From contig OX638351.1 of assembly GCA_951813565.1 (NCBI GenBank), positions 2,816,001 to 2,880,000 on the forward strand: a DNA stretch of 64,000 nucleotides, written 5' to 3'. A program made the position numbers. Below are positions 36,001-45,000 of this stretch, one piece after another; within the stretch, counting starts at the first letter, position 1; each line of letters opens with the position of its first letter. The DNA comes from an uncultured Poribacteria bacterium. Its GTDB lineage: Bacteria; Poribacteria; WGA-4E; WGA-3G.

Positions 36001-39000
36001 GAGCAAGTATCCTAATTGCTGGCGTAAACTTCGGTTGTGGCAGTTCACGTGAACATGCACCTTGGGCATTGCAGCAATACGGTTTTAAAGCGATTCTGGC
36101 ACCGTCGTTTGCCGACATCTTCCGCAATAATTGTTATAAGAACGGAATATTGCCTATCGCCTTGCCTGTAGGTGTTATCGCCTCGCTTAGTCAAGAAGCA
36201 CAGGATACTGAAGGGTATCGGTTGATGGTAGATTTAGAGGAACAATCGGTAATCTGTCCTGATGGAACGGCACACACTTATGAAATCGGTGATTTTGAGA
36301 AGTATTGTTTGCTAAACGGACTTGATGAGATAGGTTGGACCTTGCAGTATGAGGCGGACATTGCTGCGTATGAAAATCAAAATCGCTTATAGACGCAAAG
36401 TCTGCTCGTTCAAACTATTTCTCACGACCTTGATACTATTAACCTGCATCAGGCATTACTACGCAAAATTAAGATGGAGGTAGAAATGGCACAACCAAAA
36501 AAGATTAGAGCTACCTACAAAAATGGTGTGATTGAACCGTTAGACAAACTTAACCTTCCCGAAGGACAAGAACTTGAGCTTGAATTCAAAGTACTCCCCT
36601 CTGCCACTTCTGAACTTTCTAAAGAAGAAAAAAAGAGGTGATTCGGAAAATGTGAGGCTCAATGAAAGGCACATAGGGAACTACCGTTGAAGAAATTAAT
36701 GCTTATCTCACGTCAGAAAGGAAGTCATGGGACAGAGAACTTTAGAAATAGGCTCAGCAGATTCTGAACCCACTTCTGTGTTATTGGATACGTCCGTTTT
36801 TATATAGTTATACCATTTCTAATATATGAATGTATCATTCTCGGCGGAGATTCTGTAGGAGCGACCTCCCGGTCGCGACCAGGAGGTCGCTCCTACAGAG
36901 GATATTTTCCAATTATATTTGATCCCATAAAATTTCCGTAATGGGTTTTTGTTTATTAGAATTTGTATTATGTCCGATCAATCGGCATCTATCTTTAGAA
37001 CTGGTTTTACTTCTCCGCAATAGTCTGCAAAACTGCATCCGAAAATACGTATAAGTGAATACGAAAAATTTATGCAGTGGAGAAGTAAATGAGGACTTTA
37101 TCAGATAAAATCACGCTTAGTCTTGACAGTGATGCAGACGTGTTGGTCAAAGCCTTCATTGCCCCGATTGAATACACCCAACGCAACTATCACGTGGACT
37201 GGGACGAATTGGCGAACCTAAAGGCTGTTGAACCGGAGAAACAATATCCTACCTCCGTTTTTCAAGCATTTCTGCCATCGGAATCGGTTTCAGTGGGTGA
37301 ATGCTGGCAGATTGAAGAAGAAGGGGCATTAACGCTGCTAAGACAACTCAGTCCAAACCCACAATTGGAGTTGGAAATTGGTGGGGCGGATTCTTACGGT
37401 TTGTGGGCATGTCTACGCGCCTACAATGATGTGTTTGCTGAGATTCTGTTCCGTATCCACGCGGAATTCGTCTTAGAAAAAGGTTGGTTTGCCCCATCGC
37501 AGTTTGCCGGACATGCGGTTATAGATCGGGTCGAAAAGAAAGTTGCCTCCTTCAAGATGCACGTTCCGGATGCCACACTGAACTTTGATGCACGTTGGAG
37601 AATTAGAGATGGACTCTGCGGAGCGGACATCGGCTTTTGCCCGCAAATGGAACTCTGTGCAGGTGAACAAGACGTTTTTCAAGATGCCAAATTCACAGAA
37701 GCGATCACCCAAGAGGAAGCATTGCAAGCACTGATGTTACGTTTTTACAAATCAGCGCGAATTAACTGGGTCCCGCTGGAGGAAGCGTTGGAATTGGCAC
37801 CTGCATTACAGAAACCAATTCACGCCATTTCATCAGGTGGTCCGCTTGCAGACGAGTCGTGCTGAGGGAGTGGCAAAAGCCTGAGGGCAGGTGCCCTCTC
37901 TGACGATCAAAACATTGAATTCCTGAACGAAAATTTCATCAACACTTGGGTGGCAGATGCTGAATTAGGGCGTATCCACAGTTTGCGAGAACCGATTGCC
38001 AAGAGACGCGAGCGCGAGGGTGAGACGTTTGACACAAGCCATCCGTTAGCACAAGCCATTATAAAGGGGTGGAAAACCGGATCGAAAAAAGGTTCACCCG
38101 TAGATTGTTTCGTCATATCACCTGATTTTGAACTGATGGGCAGACAACTTGTCAATGAAATCTATAACGACAGTAGACGTAAGGGATTACTTTCGGATGA
38201 AGAGTATTACCTTATGTTTCTCAAGGAGTGCTTGGAGGGAAAGCAACCCGGATTGGGGAACATCACTCTGAACAGTGAAGAACCTTCTCAGGAGGTCCTT
38301 GAGGTTTTCCGAACACCAGTGGTTGGCTATCAGGATTACACCATTGTTGTCATTGACACAAGGGCGTTTGAAAATGGTGGCACGTTAACCGTTGATATTG
38401 AAACTGGTAGAGCGGATGCGGAAGGGCACTTCTATTTGTTTGATGGTGACAGCGAGCTTCCAATGGATGAACGGGTGCCTAAAGATAAAAGACTTGCTTC
38501 TGCATGGATTGAGCCTGATGAGACAGGGCAACTCACACATCGCTTTGACCGAGGCGCGTTTTTTAGATTAGGTGCTACCGGGTGTTACGGTAGAAGTGAG
38601 AAAGGCAGCACAAATGCTTTTAAGGCAAAAATTTCTGTAGAGCCAGTGGAGAAACCCAGATCAATGTAGTGCTCTGTCCATCTTAAAACTATGGGTTTTG
38701 TTGCATGAGAAACCTAACCCTCATGAGTTTTGACGTTCAAGTTGGGTATTCGTAGGGACGTGGTCCCCACGCCCGATCTACAGAAACTCACAAACCAAGC
38801 GGGTTGGGGAACCCAACCGCTACGTATTCAACTACCGATTTTGATTGTCAAAGTTCATAAGGTAGAAGCACTCTCCGAATCGCGACTGCTAAATGAAACT
38901 TGACAGAACAGTAGCATTTGCGATGCTATACATACTAAAGTTTGGATAAAGTCAAATTAAAATTACGTTTTTTTCTGAAAGATGTTATAATGTTACTGGA

Positions 39001-42000: not shown

Positions 42001-45000
42001 GATCACTGATTGCTGACATCCGATAGCTGCACAAACTGGTATCCGTCCCGTTTAAGTGCTGTGATGATTCGGTCTGTTGCTTCGATTGTCCCTGAACGGT
42101 TTGCGTCCTTATTTTCCGCTTTCCCATCGTGTAGGACGATAATCGAACCCGGTTTAGTCTTTTGCAATACCTTTTCAGTGATCCTATCTGGGTTTTGGGT
42201 CGTCCAATCCCAACTCCACACATTGCAACTGATATGTGGTCGGTTTTCCTTTGCAAGAACCCATGCGACTGGCAAAAAGCGTGTTAGCATTGGTGCTCGA
42301 AATACTATCTCCTCCGAAATCGCGTGTTGCCTAATTAGGTCGTCCGTACGTTCAATTTCCCGCTGGACATAGATCGGCGGCAGAAAACCGAGCACTGGAT
42401 GGCTATAGGTGTGATTGCCAATCTGGTGATCCTCGGCAATAATCCGATTTACTGTTTCAGGATGCTTCTCAATCCGATTTCCAATCATGAAGAATGTGGC
42501 TTTGACGTTGTGCTTCGCGAGGACATCAAGTAACCGCTCAGTATAAGGCGGATTTGGTCCATCATCGTAAGTGAGCGCGACAACCTTCTGATCTGTGTTC
42601 AGGCGAACGACATTCTTCCCGAACGGTGGTCTGAAGAAATACCATAGTAATATTACCGTTGCAAATCCTACCACAATGATAATTATTAAATTCACTATAA
42701 TTGATGCCTCAAAAATCTTAGAGTGAACGATTTATTGGGAATTGGCTTTCTCTAAATCCTTACATCCAACTCACGTTTTCTATATAATACCATTTCTGAT
42801 TAAAATTGTAGCATAAACTTTCAGTTTGTGTTTCCTTTGTAGCATAGACTGTTAGTCTGTGCGCTAAGGTGCGGTTAATGGAATATAAACTTTTAGAAAT
42901 GGTATTATACGAGAAGCCTCCACTGCTTGACAACATTTTTTCAAAAGCAAAATCATACCTAATGCGTCTGACACTGAATACGGATTGCCAATGCCTGACA
43001 ACTGGTAACCGAATATCCGTGCCGCTATACAGGTTTTTTCTTGACGGTTTCGGTCAAATGTATTATCATTTTAGTTGATTCCGATGCAGCATCATTTGAA
43101 AGGAACAACAATGCAGAGTCACGAAGTAGATTATGAAATTTTTGGTAACGATATGCAGGTCGTTGAGGTTGAACTTGATAGAGGCGAGACGATCATAGCG
43201 GAAGCAGGTGCTATGAACTGGATGGAGGATGACATTGTCTATGCGGCAAAGATGGGCGATGGTTCCGGTGGTGATGAGGGCTTGATGGGCAAACTTCTCA
43301 GTGCCGGTAAACGTGCTATCAGTGGTGAATCGCTTTTTTTAACCCATTTCACTAACACTGGCAACCACAAGAGACGGGTCGCCTTCGCCGCTCCCTACCC
43401 CGGTCATATTATCCCGATTGATCTTGCCAAATTCGGCGGAGAGTTGCTCTGTCAGAAGGATGCTTTCCTCTGCGCTGCCTTGGGTACTGAACTGGACATT
43501 GCTTTCTCACGGAAATTGGGTGCCGGGTTTTTTGGTGGTGAAGGTTTTATCCTCCAACGCCTACGCGGCGACGGCATGGCTTTTGTGCATGCGGGGGGAT
43601 CAATCGTCAAAAAGGAACTTGTCAACGAGACACTCCGTGTTGACACCGGGTGTCTTGTCGCCTTCACGTCTGGTGTTGATTATGACATTGAAATGGTCAA
43701 AGGCTTAAAGTCAATGTTCTTCGGCGGTGAAGGGCTTTTCCTCGCGACCCTGCAAGGCACAGGTACTGTTTACCTCCAGAGTTTGCCTTTTTCAAAACTT
43801 GCAGACCGTATTATTGAACAAGTGCCAAGAAGCGGAAACTGATATGAGTACTGTATCCACTAAAAAGAATACACGTTCAATTTGAAAATGAATTTGATTG
43901 GTAAATCGTACAAAACGGAATGAAATAATAGGAACAACATGAAGGCAGACACATTCACCAATACGATTATCGTTGGGGATACAACGAAAGTATTACCAGA
44001 ACTTATAAAGGTAGAAAAACAATACGATGTGATTATTGTATGAACAAGGACCTTTTACAACTTATCGAAGATTATACTACAAAAGAACACACCGAAATCA
44101 GCGCTAACCTGATCGGTAAATCTAAAGACAGTCTCGTCGCTATGCTTTTAGAATTACTTACGAAATATTATAATGATTTGAATTCTTCTACGATGCGCGA
44201 GTTAGTTGTAGCTGTAGTAGCTGGGTATGAGCCTAGCTCAGAAAAGCTGGGGTATAACGGTTTTAGACATAATACGCTTACAGGAGAAGTCGAACACTGC
44301 GAAATAAAACCTCGCAATTATCGGACTAATTCTATTGCTAAGTCCCCCACTAAATTGAATGGTGGCGGTAATCTCACAGATTACAGTTGGCAAAAGTTCG
44401 AAAGGCATAAAGAAGAAAGCCCCAACATGTTGGTTGCTGGTTTTGTTAATGGACGCCTCATTTACATATTCGGGTTCAGTTTTAACGAACAAAGTTTCAC
44501 ATCCCGATTGCAAGCACAACTTGAACGCAGATTTCCTAATGGTGATAGAATAGGTCAATACCTACGAAGTGCCGATTTTTCATTTATACCAGGACTTACG
44601 CAGTCTTGAAGATTATTGAAGGATTTGAGAGTTGATATCGTAAATAATCGTCCAATAAGCTATCTTTAAGCTCATAAATTGTTCTACCAACTGCACGGGC
44701 AGTGCGTGTCAAACAGACCCATACTTGAAAACAACACGCAATATGATTTCTTTGCGCACGCAACTTGCGACATTGACATTTACCAATACCAGTGACTTGT
44801 TTGATCTCACGATGAAATTGCTCAATCTTCCAACGCACTTTACATTCTTGGATTGTGGCATCCACATCATCATACTCAATGTCATCCTTTACGGATTGCC
44901 AGAGTTCGCTTGAAGAAATGTTTTCATTTCTCAAGAAACGATTGAGTTGATCGTGGCTCCATTTTTCTGTCCGAGCAGCAAAGTAGGTTTGTGTCCAATT

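What a model noticed while it worked through the whole genome (the two positions that open the first line are those of the whole stretch)
37089..42002. Bacterial selenoprotein N (SELENON) homologues with in-frame UGA
Three genes of this Poribacteria genome (C1:2853089-2854669 +, C1:2855966-2858002 +, C1:1717410-1718963 -) are homologues of animal selenoprotein N. Each was cut in two by the gene caller at an in-frame TGA that sits in the motif (D/E)E(S/A)C-U-G(S)GK, the same SCUG place as the selenocysteine of human SELENON, and is followed 17-20 nt later by a conserved SECIS-like hairpin; they are read through as selenocysteine. SELENON-like proteins are not in the current inventory of prokaryotic selenoprotein families.
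Evidence so far: Swiss-Prot best hits of the N-terminal halves g01500, g02469, g02473 are SELN_HUMAN/DANRE/XENTR/MOUSE (E 1e-19..1e-23, 26-34% id over 210-320 aa) and the alignments end at the residue before the Sec of SELENON. Read-through gives 517-678 aa ORFs with coding signal on both sides. In 66+ loci of other Poribacteria 124 of 124 instances of the motif carry TGA although proteins are only 57-88% identical; the hairpin GAGGGC-AGGU-GYCCUC after the TGA keeps pairing through compensatory changes (GAGAGC/GCUCUC, GAGGAC/GUCCUC, GAGAAC/GUUCUC). selA g03474, selB g04427, selD g03926, tRNA-Sec 5209004-5209097 are present. Review PMC13188914 (May 2026) lists 119 prokaryotic families, none SELENON-like (Tabl [...]
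(Added by a program. Inside this text positions count along the whole contig: contig position 2,816,001 is position 1 of the stretch shown here. "Call 12" and the like, gene names such as g00115 and contig names such as C1 are that model's own, and its searches are not shown. The text may have been shortened before it was handed on; [...] marks where a part breaks off. The agent that wrote the report below was given it as the finding of a first reader that could run no searches.)

Follow-up and report, generated by a model that had tools for sequence, protein, structure and literature searches.

The report
Bacterial selenoprotein N genes with selenocysteine
Two neighbouring genes of this sponge-symbiont bacterium are relatives of selenoprotein N, the human muscle-disease protein, and very probably read an in-frame stop codon as selenocysteine, which gives a bacterial model for a poorly understood human enzyme.

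Summary
Window 37089-38669 and 39966-42002 are single genes, each cut by one in-frame TGA in D-E-(S/A)-C-U-G-S-G-K. A 6-bp hairpin follows 17 nt later. The genome holds selA, selB, a Sec-type selD and tRNA-Sec, and TGA is otherwise an ordinary stop.

The proteins match selenoprotein N (SELENON) across the Sec motif (BLASTP E 1e-28 to a wombat protein whose relatives are named selenoprotein N).

The family is wider than claimed:
- 131 of 176 genomes of the window's phylum carry it, with up to 12 matches each.
- It also occurs in Planctomycetota, in 9 of 301 genomes sampled.
- Rare Cys forms exist, and some Gly forms, so "124 of 124 TGA" does not hold everywhere.

The hairpin keeps pairing through compensatory changes. 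An AlphaFold model (pLDDT 92) shows a thioredoxin-like domain with C-U before its first helix. Eukaryote-type SELENON groups with a second, DDQSC-type group that includes Planctomycetota genes, not with Poribacteria.

New here: the eukaryotic hairpin after the UGA (the SRE) is centred on the same codons as the bacterial hairpin.

The family is absent from Pfam, from NCBIfam and from the 119-family 2026 inventory, and nine text searches found no description. This scan had already noted it in other genomes, and part of one of those notes later fell. Sec insertion itself is not shown.

The parts
37089..38669 (+). Gene A: SELENON-like selenoprotein, 526 aa read through one TGA. No signal peptide: a stop codon lies directly before the ATG.
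37863..37865 (+). In-frame TGA of gene A (U259) in ADESC-U-GSGK
37883..37898 (+). SECIS-like hairpin of gene A: GAGGGC / AGGT loop / GCCCTC, 17 nt after the TGA
37206..37718 (+). Gene A, N-terminal beta-rich domain shared with SELENON (about residues 40-210). Fold not identified.
37743..38255 (+). Gene A, thioredoxin-like domain (about residues 219-389) with the C-U pair between its first strand and first helix
38250..38648 (+). Gene A, C-terminal jelly-roll beta-sandwich (about residues 388-520). Absent from the animal SELENON records and the Cys forms aligned; a comparable C-terminal piece was read in one Planctomycetota frame (L055) but not analysed.
39966..42002 (+). Gene B: SELENON-like selenoprotein, 678 aa read through one TGA. 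64% identical to gene A, ends at a second TGA used as a stop, and has no signal peptide.
40737..40739 (+). In-frame TGA of gene B (U258) in FDEAC-U-GSGK
40757..40774 (+). SECIS-like hairpin of gene B: GAGGGC / AGTTGA loop / GCTCTC (one G-U pair), 17 nt after the TGA
41616..41999 (+). Gene B, second copy of the C-terminal beta-sandwich (56% identical to residues 391-521 of gene A)

Best explanation
Both genes encode bacterial members of the selenoprotein N (SELENON) family.

Decoding. The in-frame UGA is read as selenocysteine by the bacterial route. SelB carrying Sec-tRNA(Sec) is recruited by the small hairpin that lies inside the coding sequence 15-17 nt after the UGA. What is shown: the UGA, the hairpin and its covariation, the Sec machinery genes, and protein-level selection on the codons after the UGA. 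What is inferred: SelB binding and Sec insertion.

The protein. It has three parts:
- a beta-rich N-terminal domain shared with SELENON;
- a thioredoxin-like domain in which the adjacent Cys-Sec pair sits in the loop before the first helix, where thioredoxin-fold enzymes carry CxxC;
- in this Poribacteria subfamily, one (gene A) or two (gene B) C-terminal jelly-roll modules.

Likely chemistry (inferred). The Cys-Sec pair cycles between selenol/thiol and a selenenylsulfide, as in the GCUG motif of thioredoxin reductase and as proposed for SEPN1. This would reduce disulfides or sulfenic acids on client proteins. The jelly-roll module would serve as a binding part.

Location (inferred). Genes A and B lack a signal peptide and so probably act in the cytoplasm. 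Many paralogues and the Planctomycetota members carry signal or lipoprotein-like N-termini.
For: Gene structure
- One TGA in each of the three genomic copies.
- TGA is otherwise a normal stop: it ends 440 of 2,265 open frames of at least 300 codons.

Homology
- A profile of 10 family members found 777 proteins at E<=1e-3 among 1.84 billion representatives.
- One of these is the wombat protein P0241 (E 3.3e-31), whose relatives are named Selenoprotein N.
- BLASTP of gene A against P0241 gives E 1e-28, with 74 of 239 residues identical across the motif.
- At least 71 of the best 150 representatives end exactly at the Cys before the Sec place.
- Six Cys forms read DESC-C-GSGK or similar.

Translation past the TGA
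- Across 75 distinct sequences, the codons after the TGA keep Gly in 71 of 75, Gly in 75 of 75 and Lys in 75 of 75.
- Ser is coded by both AGY and TCN codons.
- Variation is concentrated at third codon positions: 1.24 bits, against 0.36 and 0.64 at positions 1 and 2.
- The frame stays open for at least 94 codons in 82 of 82.

Hairpin
- 72 of 75 distinct Sec forms have an uninterrupted stem of at least 6 bp, against 18-20% of synonymous recodings of the same peptides.
- In the window's subfamily (24 sequences), 144 of 144 cells pair and 3 of 6 pairs show changes on both sides. No shuffle of 500 reached the observed paired share or covariation score. Slid controls paired 47-82%.
- Distant Planctomycetota members have different hairpins at the same place.

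Machinery
- selA, selB, tRNA-Sec and a Sec-type selD are present.

Fold
- The model has pLDDT 92.2.
- All 50 VIA rows are thioredoxin-fold proteins or thioredoxin-containing fusion chains, and all fall on model residues 168-356 (mostly 180-350). DsbH scores Z 9.7, rmsd 3.4, 125 aligned. The Foldseek top hits agree.

Redox context
- Relatives are fused to AhpC/TSA-Redoxin domains (L047, L048).
Against: - Sec insertion is not shown by any data here.
- The hairpin lies in codons for the conserved peptide L-R-A-x-x-L-S, so part of its conservation is protein constraint. All 8 distinct Gly forms, which have no TGA, keep a 6-bp stem.
- A cruder test on total folding energy was only modest: mean z -1.6, and 28 of 75 sequences beat 95% of their synonymous recodings.
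- The sequences are related, so the shuffle controls overstate significance.
- The animal records at hand omit the U-G residues. The exact Sec-to-Sec match therefore rests on the flanking alignment plus the literature.
- The place of C-U in the fold is read from secondary-structure order, not from a superposition.
- Function and clients are inference only.
- The gene neighbourhood gives no clue: leuC/leuD, a small UPF0175/DUF3368 pair, a polysaccharide deacetylase and an AIM24-family protein.
Confidence: 0.87

Rival explanations
1. The TGAs are true stops. Each locus would be two genes: an N-terminal protein ending at ...DESC, and a separately started C-terminal protein. This is how gene callers annotate them.
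For: Public gene calls split them. Most database relatives are halves of this kind. TGA is a working stop in this genome and ends gene B itself.
Against: The four codons directly after the TGA (G-S/T-G-K) are conserved as amino acids, with synonymous variation. They lie upstream of any start codon of the second half; the first table-11 start in gene A is at 37950. Cys and Gly forms are single uninterrupted proteins. Homology to SELENON runs straight across the position. A thioredoxin-like domain would be cut between its first strand and first helix.
Confidence: 0.03
2. The UGA is read through, but as a standard amino acid (Gly, Trp or Cys) by suppression or near-cognate reading, not as selenocysteine.
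For: Close relatives carry Gly at the position, in 9 of 91 frames. Two database proteins, P0044 and P0059, show Trp there. I did not see their DNA, so TGG versus TGA read under another code is open.
Against: The genome has a full Sec machinery and a Sec-type selD. The hairpin sits at bacterial-SECIS distance and covaries. The homologous residue of SEPN1 is Sec (PMC7474598, PMC12839072). TGA is an ordinary stop elsewhere in the genome. ARAGORN listed tRNA-SeC(tca); I grepped its list only for SeC, so I did not check for another tRNA that reads UGA.
Confidence: 0.04
3. The copies are decaying pseudogenes of a formerly Cys- or Gly-coding family.
For: The family is highly amplified, with up to 12 matches per genome. 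A few matches carry extra TAA or TAG stops: 6 of the listed best matches by my reading of the table.
Against: The same single TGA at the same codon recurs in 131 of 176 genomes of the phylum and in another phylum. There are no other stops and the frames stay open. Selection acts at the amino-acid level on both sides of the TGA.
Confidence: 0.01
4. The genes are real selenoprotein genes, but the small hairpin is only a by-product of the conserved L-R-A-x-x-L-S peptide. Under this rival the true SelB-binding element would lie elsewhere.
For: Gly forms without a TGA keep the stem, 8 of 8. 18-20% of synonymous recodings also give a 6-bp stem. The total-energy test was weak.
Against: Compensatory changes need amino-acid replacements on both arms, for example GAGGAC/GTCCTC and GAGAGTA/TACTCTC. 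Divergent members with other peptides (L040, L055, L109, L110) have different hairpins at the same distance. The Gly forms sit inside a Sec-form clade and may be recent.
Confidence: 0.07

Closest known systems
Eukaryotic selenoprotein N (SELENON / SEPN1 / SelN)
   Same: Homologous over the conserved core, that is the beta-rich domain plus the thioredoxin-like domain, about 240-300 residues at 28-31% identity. Same Cys-Sec-Gly-Ser-Gly motif at the same place. An RNA hairpin follows the UGA in both.
   Different: The bacterial proteins lack the N-terminal cytosolic tail, the membrane anchor and the EF-hand region. The Poribacteria forms add one or two jelly-roll modules. Decoding would use a bacterial in-frame SECIS and SelB rather than a 3'UTR SECIS with SBP2 and EFSec (the latter from passages of PMC12839072). 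Genes A and B have no export signal.
Selenocysteine redefinition element (SRE) of SEPN1 mRNA
   Same: A hairpin adjacent to the UGA (passages of PMC12839072 and PMC8584023). In 21 distinct eukaryote-type metagenome sequences, a 12-bp helix spans columns 10-21 and 37-48 counted from the T of TGA. It is 96% paired, and 4 pairs show changes on both sides. Its centre is column 29. The bacterial hairpins are centred at 28.5-29.5.
   Different: The eukaryotic helix is much longer and starts 6 nt after the UGA. Its outer arms have no bacterial counterpart. It is described as helping a 3'UTR-SECIS system, not as binding SelB.
Predicted bacterial thioredoxin-fold selenoproteins (Prx-like, DsbA-like, TlpA-like, thiol-disulfide isomerase-like; Table 1 of PMC13188914)
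   Same: In-frame UGA at the redox site of a thioredoxin-like fold. Split by gene callers. SECIS inside the coding sequence.
   Different: Those families carry UxxC or CxxU motifs and match Pfam or NCBIfam models. This family has an adjacent C-U pair and a large extra N-terminal domain, and it matches no Pfam or NCBIfam model.
DsbH / Thioredoxin_7-like and ER AGR/ERp19 and UAS domains (structural neighbours)
   Same: Best structural matches of the thioredoxin-like domain: DsbH 2ju5 Z 9.7, AGR3 3ph9 Z 8.6, UAS of UBXD7 2dlx Z 7.3. Foldseek puts 7tkv first at E 1.5e-4.
   Different: Sequence identity is only 13-19%. Fold-level likeness does not show a shared function.
Thioredoxin reductase C-terminal GCUG redox centre
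   Same: An adjacent Cys-Sec pair followed by Gly. The review PMC12839072 itself likens SCUG to GCUG.
   Different: In thioredoxin reductase the motif sits on a flexible C-terminal tail of a flavoenzyme. Here it lies inside a thioredoxin-like domain. The thioredoxin reductase details are recalled, not tested.

Membership tests
Selenoprotein N (SELENON) family | Sequence homology over the conserved core region | tested here: met
   Profile hit to the vertebrate protein P0241 at E 3.3e-31. BLASTP E 1e-28, 31% identity over 239 aa. Relatives of P0241 are named Selenoprotein N. Alignment.
Selenoprotein N (SELENON) family | Selenocysteine directly after a Cys in an S/A-C-U-G motif of the thioredoxin-like domain | tested here: met
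   TGA follows the aligned Cys in genes A and B and in the third copy. C427-U428 and SCUG in the human protein come from passages of PMC7474598 and PMC12839072. Eukaryote-type metagenome contigs read LWGALDDQSC-TGA-GSGRTLRE. This is met at the DNA level only.
Selenoprotein N (SELENON) family | N-terminal membrane anchor and luminal EF-hand calcium sensor (animal architecture) | tested here: not met
   The bacterial proteins start about where the animal core begins and lack the roughly 200 N-terminal residues of the animal proteins. A stop codon lies directly before each ATG. Pfam cannot decide this point: the named horse SELENON also gives no Pfam hit.
Selenoprotein N (SELENON) family | Redox action on SERCA-type clients in the ER | not testable with these tools
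   Known for SEPN1 from passages of PMC9344019 and PMC7474598. No bacterial client is known.
Bacterial SelB/SECIS-decoded selenoprotein genes | Conserved in-frame TGA aligned with Sec or Cys in homologues | tested here: met
   82 of 91 frames carry TGA. 56 of 56 motif instances in the genome-contig loci carry TGA. Six Cys forms. Sec in SEPN1.
Bacterial SelB/SECIS-decoded selenoprotein genes | Stem-loop shortly after the UGA, with pairing kept in evolution | tested here: met
   Caveat: the Gly forms keep the stem too.
Bacterial SelB/SECIS-decoded selenoprotein genes | selA, selB, selD and tRNA-Sec in the same genome | tested here: met
   SelA is found in 164 of 176 genomes of the phylum.
Bacterial SelB/SECIS-decoded selenoprotein genes | Selenium actually incorporated at the UGA | not testable with these tools
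   RNA-library contigs of relatives bridge the TGA, but that does not show translation.
Thioredoxin-fold oxidoreductases | Thioredoxin-like fold | tested here: met
   Model pLDDT 92.2. All 50 VIA rows are thioredoxin-fold proteins or thioredoxin-containing fusion chains, best Z 9.7. Foldseek agrees.
Thioredoxin-fold oxidoreductases | CxxC-type motif at the start of the first helix | tested here: not met
   The motif is an adjacent C-U pair in the loop before the helix at model residues 224-228. No CxxC or UxxC is present there.
Any of the 119 listed prokaryotic selenoprotein families (PMC13188914) or NCBIfam selenoprotein models | Match to the family's Pfam or NCBIfam model, or to its listed motif | tested here: not met
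   0 Pfam hits and 0 NCBIfam hits for both proteins. Table 1 as read has no SELENON-like row.

The most novel reading that the evidence does not exclude
SELENON passed between bacteria and eukaryotes as a working selenoprotein gene, most simply from a Planctomycetota-like donor. On this reading, the hairpin that eukaryotic SELENON mRNAs keep right after the UGA (the SRE, mutated in some myopathy patients) descends from the bacterial in-frame SECIS.

What fits:
- The two hairpins are centred on the same homologous codons, within about one nucleotide.
- In the R-E-T-A-L variants of the eukaryote-type sequences, an inner GAGAG/CTCTC helix uses the same Ala-Leu codons for its 3' arm as the bacterial GCTCTC arm.
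- Eukaryote-type SELENON groups with the DDQSC-type group, which includes Planctomycetota genes, and not with Poribacteria.

What does not settle it:
- The tree is unrooted.
- The shared peptide constrains the nucleotides.
- Any recoding hairpin has to lie near the UGA.
Probability: 0.25. Interest if true: 0.85.

Novelty: new variant of a known kind. Interest (0 to 1): 0.7.

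Why it matters
SELENON is a human disease gene (SEPN1-related myopathy). No chain of the 2026 copy of the Protein Data Bank matched gene A by sequence, and its chemistry is poorly defined.

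- **A model system.** A large and diverse bacterial branch gives soluble, membrane-free versions for structure and enzymology. It also gave enough sequence depth for a confident model here (pLDDT 92). Natural Cys and Gly variants can be compared with the Sec forms.
- **The bacterial selenoproteome.** The family adds a prokaryotic selenoprotein family that gene callers split systematically. Sec use in Poribacteria and Planctomycetota is therefore undercounted.
- **Fusions point to redox roles.** Relatives fused to ECF sigma factors and to AhpC/TSA-redoxin domains suggest redox sensing and peroxide-linked functions that can be tested.
- **Origin of a eukaryotic element.** The shared position of the eukaryotic SRE and the bacterial hairpin makes the origin of a eukaryotic recoding element a testable question.

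Tried and rejected
- **Family libraries.** Pfam and NCBIfam scans of both proteins gave 0 hits. This says little, because a named horse SELENON also has no Pfam hit.
- **PDB by sequence.** 0 hits at E<=0.01.
- **Protein atlas.** A natural Gly-form relative returned only an unnamed Poribacteria cluster at score 0.78.
- **First AlphaFold job.** With 10 rows the model was poor outside the C-terminal domain (pLDDT 51.8). A 113-row alignment of database halves and full forms fixed this.
- **The search for related loci.** The 26-row alignment had no stretch conserved enough. An 11-row alignment worked.
- **Folding-energy test.** Total energy against synonymous recodings was weak, so I replaced it with a stem-specific count.
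- **SelA co-occurrence.** It does not discriminate. SelA is in 164 of 176 genomes, and 6 of the 131 positive genomes lack a SelA hit; all 6 are multi-contig MAGs, 73-95% complete.
- **RNA-library contigs.** Four runs from two studies hold relatives about 90% alike. Contigs bridge the TGA of gene A (37725-38054, 37762-38047) and of gene B (40653-40833). The tool warns that such libraries can hold DNA, so I use this as no more than a hint.
- **Promoter and terminator scan.** Nothing above the shuffled expectation.
- **Sponge-host transfer idea.** Rejected for now. The tree separates eukaryote-type SELENON from Poribacteria (SH-aLRT 97). An AU test rejects a joint clade (p 0.0002, lnL difference 122). 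I named that group after seeing the tree, and Poribacteria are themselves not one clade.

Full report
**1. What is in the window**

Under the standard bacterial code the region holds four frames: 37089-37865, 37950-38669, 39966-40739 and 40797-42002. With TGA read as U they merge into two.
- Gene A is 37089-38669: 526 aa, with U259 in ADESC-U-GSGK.
- Gene B is 39966-42002: 678 aa, with U258 in FDEAC-U-GSGK. It ends at a second TGA that serves as its stop.

A hairpin starts 17 nt after each internal TGA. Gene A has GAGGGC/AGGT/GCCCTC at 37883-37898. Gene B has GAGGGC/AGTTGA/GCTCTC at 40757-40774.

A stop codon lies directly before each ATG, so neither protein has a signal peptide. The genome holds a third copy, also with one TGA.

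**2. Can this organism make selenoproteins?**

Yes. It has selA, the selB wing domain, tRNA-SeC(tca) next to selB, and a selD that itself carries a TGA in VKCAG-U-ASK.

TGA is not reassigned. It ends 440 of 2,265 open frames of at least 300 codons.

**3. Is the TGA translated?**

I pulled relatives from three sources:
- 176 genomes of the same phylum, of which 131 have a match at E<=1e-10, with up to 12 matches each;
- a scan of GTDB genomes, which gave 60 loci;
- Planctomycetota genomes.

Of 91 motif-bearing frames, 82 carry TGA and 9 carry a Gly codon. In the genome-contig loci, 56 of 56 motif instances carry TGA; my pattern matched in 54 of the 60 loci.

Among the complete frames, the frame stays open for at least 94 codons after the TGA, with a median of 113.

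Across 75 distinct sequences the four codons after the TGA read G (71 of 75), S/T, G (75 of 75) and K (75 of 75). Ser is coded by both AGY and TCN. Variation is concentrated at third positions: 1.24 bits, against 0.36 and 0.64. Those codons lie upstream of any start of the "second gene". This rules out two separate genes.

**4. Is it selenoprotein N?**

Pfam, NCBIfam and the PDB sequences give nothing. A named horse SELENON also gives no Pfam hit, so that result is uninformative.

A profile of ten family members, searched against 1.84 billion representatives, found 777 proteins at E<=1e-3.
- Among the best 150, at least 71 end exactly at ...D(E/Q)SC.
- Six are Cys forms (DESC-C-GSGK).
- Two vertebrate-type records were also present.

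One of these, P0241 (wombat), has relatives named Selenoprotein N. Gene A aligns to it at E 1e-28, 31% identity over 239 residues, straight across the motif.

The animal records at hand skip the U-G residues. That the Sec follows this Cys in the human protein comes from passages of PMC7474598 (C427, U428) and PMC12839072 (SCUG). Eukaryote-type metagenome contigs read LWGALDDQSC-TGA-GSGRTLRE directly.

**5. The hairpin**

Of 75 distinct Sec forms, 72 have an uninterrupted stem of at least 6 bp starting 10-26 nt after the TGA. Only 18-20% of synonymous recodings of the same peptides do.

Two registers exist:
- 6 bp with an AGGT or AGTT loop, which is the window's subfamily;
- 7 bp with a GGTC loop.

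In the window's subfamily (24 sequences), 144 of 144 cells pair and 3 of 6 pairs change on both sides. No shuffle of 500 reached the observed values, and slid controls paired 47-82%.

With all 75 sequences forced into the 7-bp register, 89.8% of 518 cells pair. Divergent members (L040, L055, L109, L110) have other hairpins at the same place.

Against this: all 8 distinct Gly forms keep the stem, a total-energy test was weak, and the sequences are kin.

**6. Structure**

That module resembles the SID1/SIDT extracellular domains (Z 11.7), PliG (11.1), collagen-binding or pre-peptidase C-terminal domains, and GOLD domains.

A second model, of residues 40-395 with 113 rows, reached pLDDT 92.2 and pTM 0.89. 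Model residues of about 180-350 are a thioredoxin-like domain:
- all 50 VIA rows are thioredoxin-fold proteins or thioredoxin-containing fusion chains, with DsbH at Z 9.7 and AGR3 at 8.6;
- the Foldseek top hits are Thioredox_DsbH, DsbH, thioredoxin, AGR3, ERp19 and UAS.

The C-U pair (model residues 219-220) lies between strand 205-210 and helix 224-228. The N-terminal beta-rich domain was barely tested.

**7. Distribution and kinship**

Named records are Candidatus Poribacteria and Planctomycetota, the latter including Pirellulaceae, Fimbriiglobus and Phycisphaerales. In a sample of 301 Planctomycetota genomes, 9 had a match.

I built a quick maximum-likelihood tree: 84 rows, 256 columns, N-terminal parts only. 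It splits at SH-aLRT 97:
- a DDQSC group, holding 9 eukaryote-type rows (one clade, support 100) and 21 unnamed metagenome rows;
- a DDESC group, holding Poribacteria, Planctomycetota and the Cys forms.

DDQSC-type genes with a TGA and a GGTC-loop hairpin occur in Planctomycetota genomes.

An AU test rejects a joint clade of eukaryotes and Poribacteria (p 0.0002). I named that group after seeing the tree. The tree is unrooted, so the direction of any transfer stays open.

**8. A link to the eukaryotic SRE**

A pattern scan of metagenome contigs gave 37 loci:
- 4 were chance matches;
- 4 were bacterial DDQSC-type;
- 29 were eukaryote-type, two of them with an intron just after R-E-T.

The eukaryote-type sequences carry a long hairpin that starts 6 nt after the UGA. 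In 21 distinct sequences, a 12-bp helix (columns 10-21 with 37-48) is 96% paired and has 4 pairs changed on both sides. No shuffle of 500 reached this.

Reviews describe such a hairpin in SEPN1 as the Sec redefinition element (passages of PMC12839072 and PMC8584023). Its centre, column 29, coincides with the centre of the bacterial hairpins at 28.5-29.5. This fits common descent. It also fits independent selection for structure near a recoded UGA in a conserved peptide.

**9. Is it new?**

Table 1 of the 2026 inventory has no such family (sections read; word search). A 2026 SELENON review does not contain the strings 'bacteri' or 'prokaryot'.

Nine text searches found no description.

Table S9 of PMC4807772 lists an unnamed 'hypothetical' planctomycete selenoprotein with a Cys homologue. 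That could be this family.

This scan noted the family before in other genomes, and one of those notes is marked "part of it fell" with no detail given. I could not query InterPro, UniProt or BSepDB.

Noticed in passing
window 39076-39863 (+): A small gene pair lies between the two SELENON-like genes: UPF0175 (94 aa) overlapping a DUF3368 protein (175 aa). It looks like a toxin-antitoxin-type module. One database relative of the C-terminal half of the selenoprotein (P0037) is named 'BrnA antitoxin family protein' by NCBI, which looks like a mislabel.
   Followed up: partly
L010, L011, L012, L014, L016, L017, L020, L022, L023 (Poribacteria genomes): These are Gly forms: C-G-(A/G)-SGK, with GGA or GGC in place of the TGA. 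They belong to a roughly 557-aa exported subgroup whose sister sequences keep the TGA (L013, L015, L018 and others). One (L020) has also lost the Cys. They still keep the hairpin. Why a redox pair would be given up is not explained.
   Followed up: partly
P0044, P0059 (database proteins, 526 aa): Trp stands at the Sec position (DESC-W-GT, ESG-W-GT). I did not see their DNA, so a true TGG or a TGA called under another code both remain possible.
   Followed up: no
P0223, P0136; L043:1448-3544, L044:1592-3688: An ECF sigma-70 factor (regions 2 and 4) is fused, through a membrane-span-like stretch, to a SELENON-like domain. P0223 ends at the TGA, and P0136 is a Cys form. This suggests a redox-sensing membrane sigma factor.
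   Followed up: partly
L047:2369-4045, L048:2552-4444 (and similar long frames L058, L062, L073, L074, L076, L077, L085): In these Poribacteria paralogues the SELENON-like selenoprotein continues into a C-terminal AhpC/TSA-Redoxin domain (Pfam E 1e-21 and 2.5e-17 for the two tested). This fusion points to a redox partner.
   Followed up: partly
G000 C1:4610940-4611866 (-), outside the window: The genome's selD is itself a selenoprotein gene (VKCAG-U-ASK), with a small hairpin about 10 nt after the UGA.
   Followed up: partly
L123, L141 (metagenome contigs, GC 0.29-0.30): In these eukaryote-type SELENON exons the frame ends right after G-S-G-R-T-L-R-E-T. An intron would therefore split the post-UGA hairpin in the gene, though not in the mRNA.
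   Followed up: no
window 39966-42002: Gene B carries the C-terminal jelly-roll module twice (second copy at about 41616-41999). Several relatives of 670-700 aa do the same.
   Followed up: partly
P0201, P0256 (metagenome proteins ending at the Sec place): Other N-terminal fusions occur in front of the SELENON-like domain. P0256 has leucine-rich repeats. P0201 has a 900-aa region with weak TPR and squalene-hopene-cyclase-like hits.
   Followed up: partly
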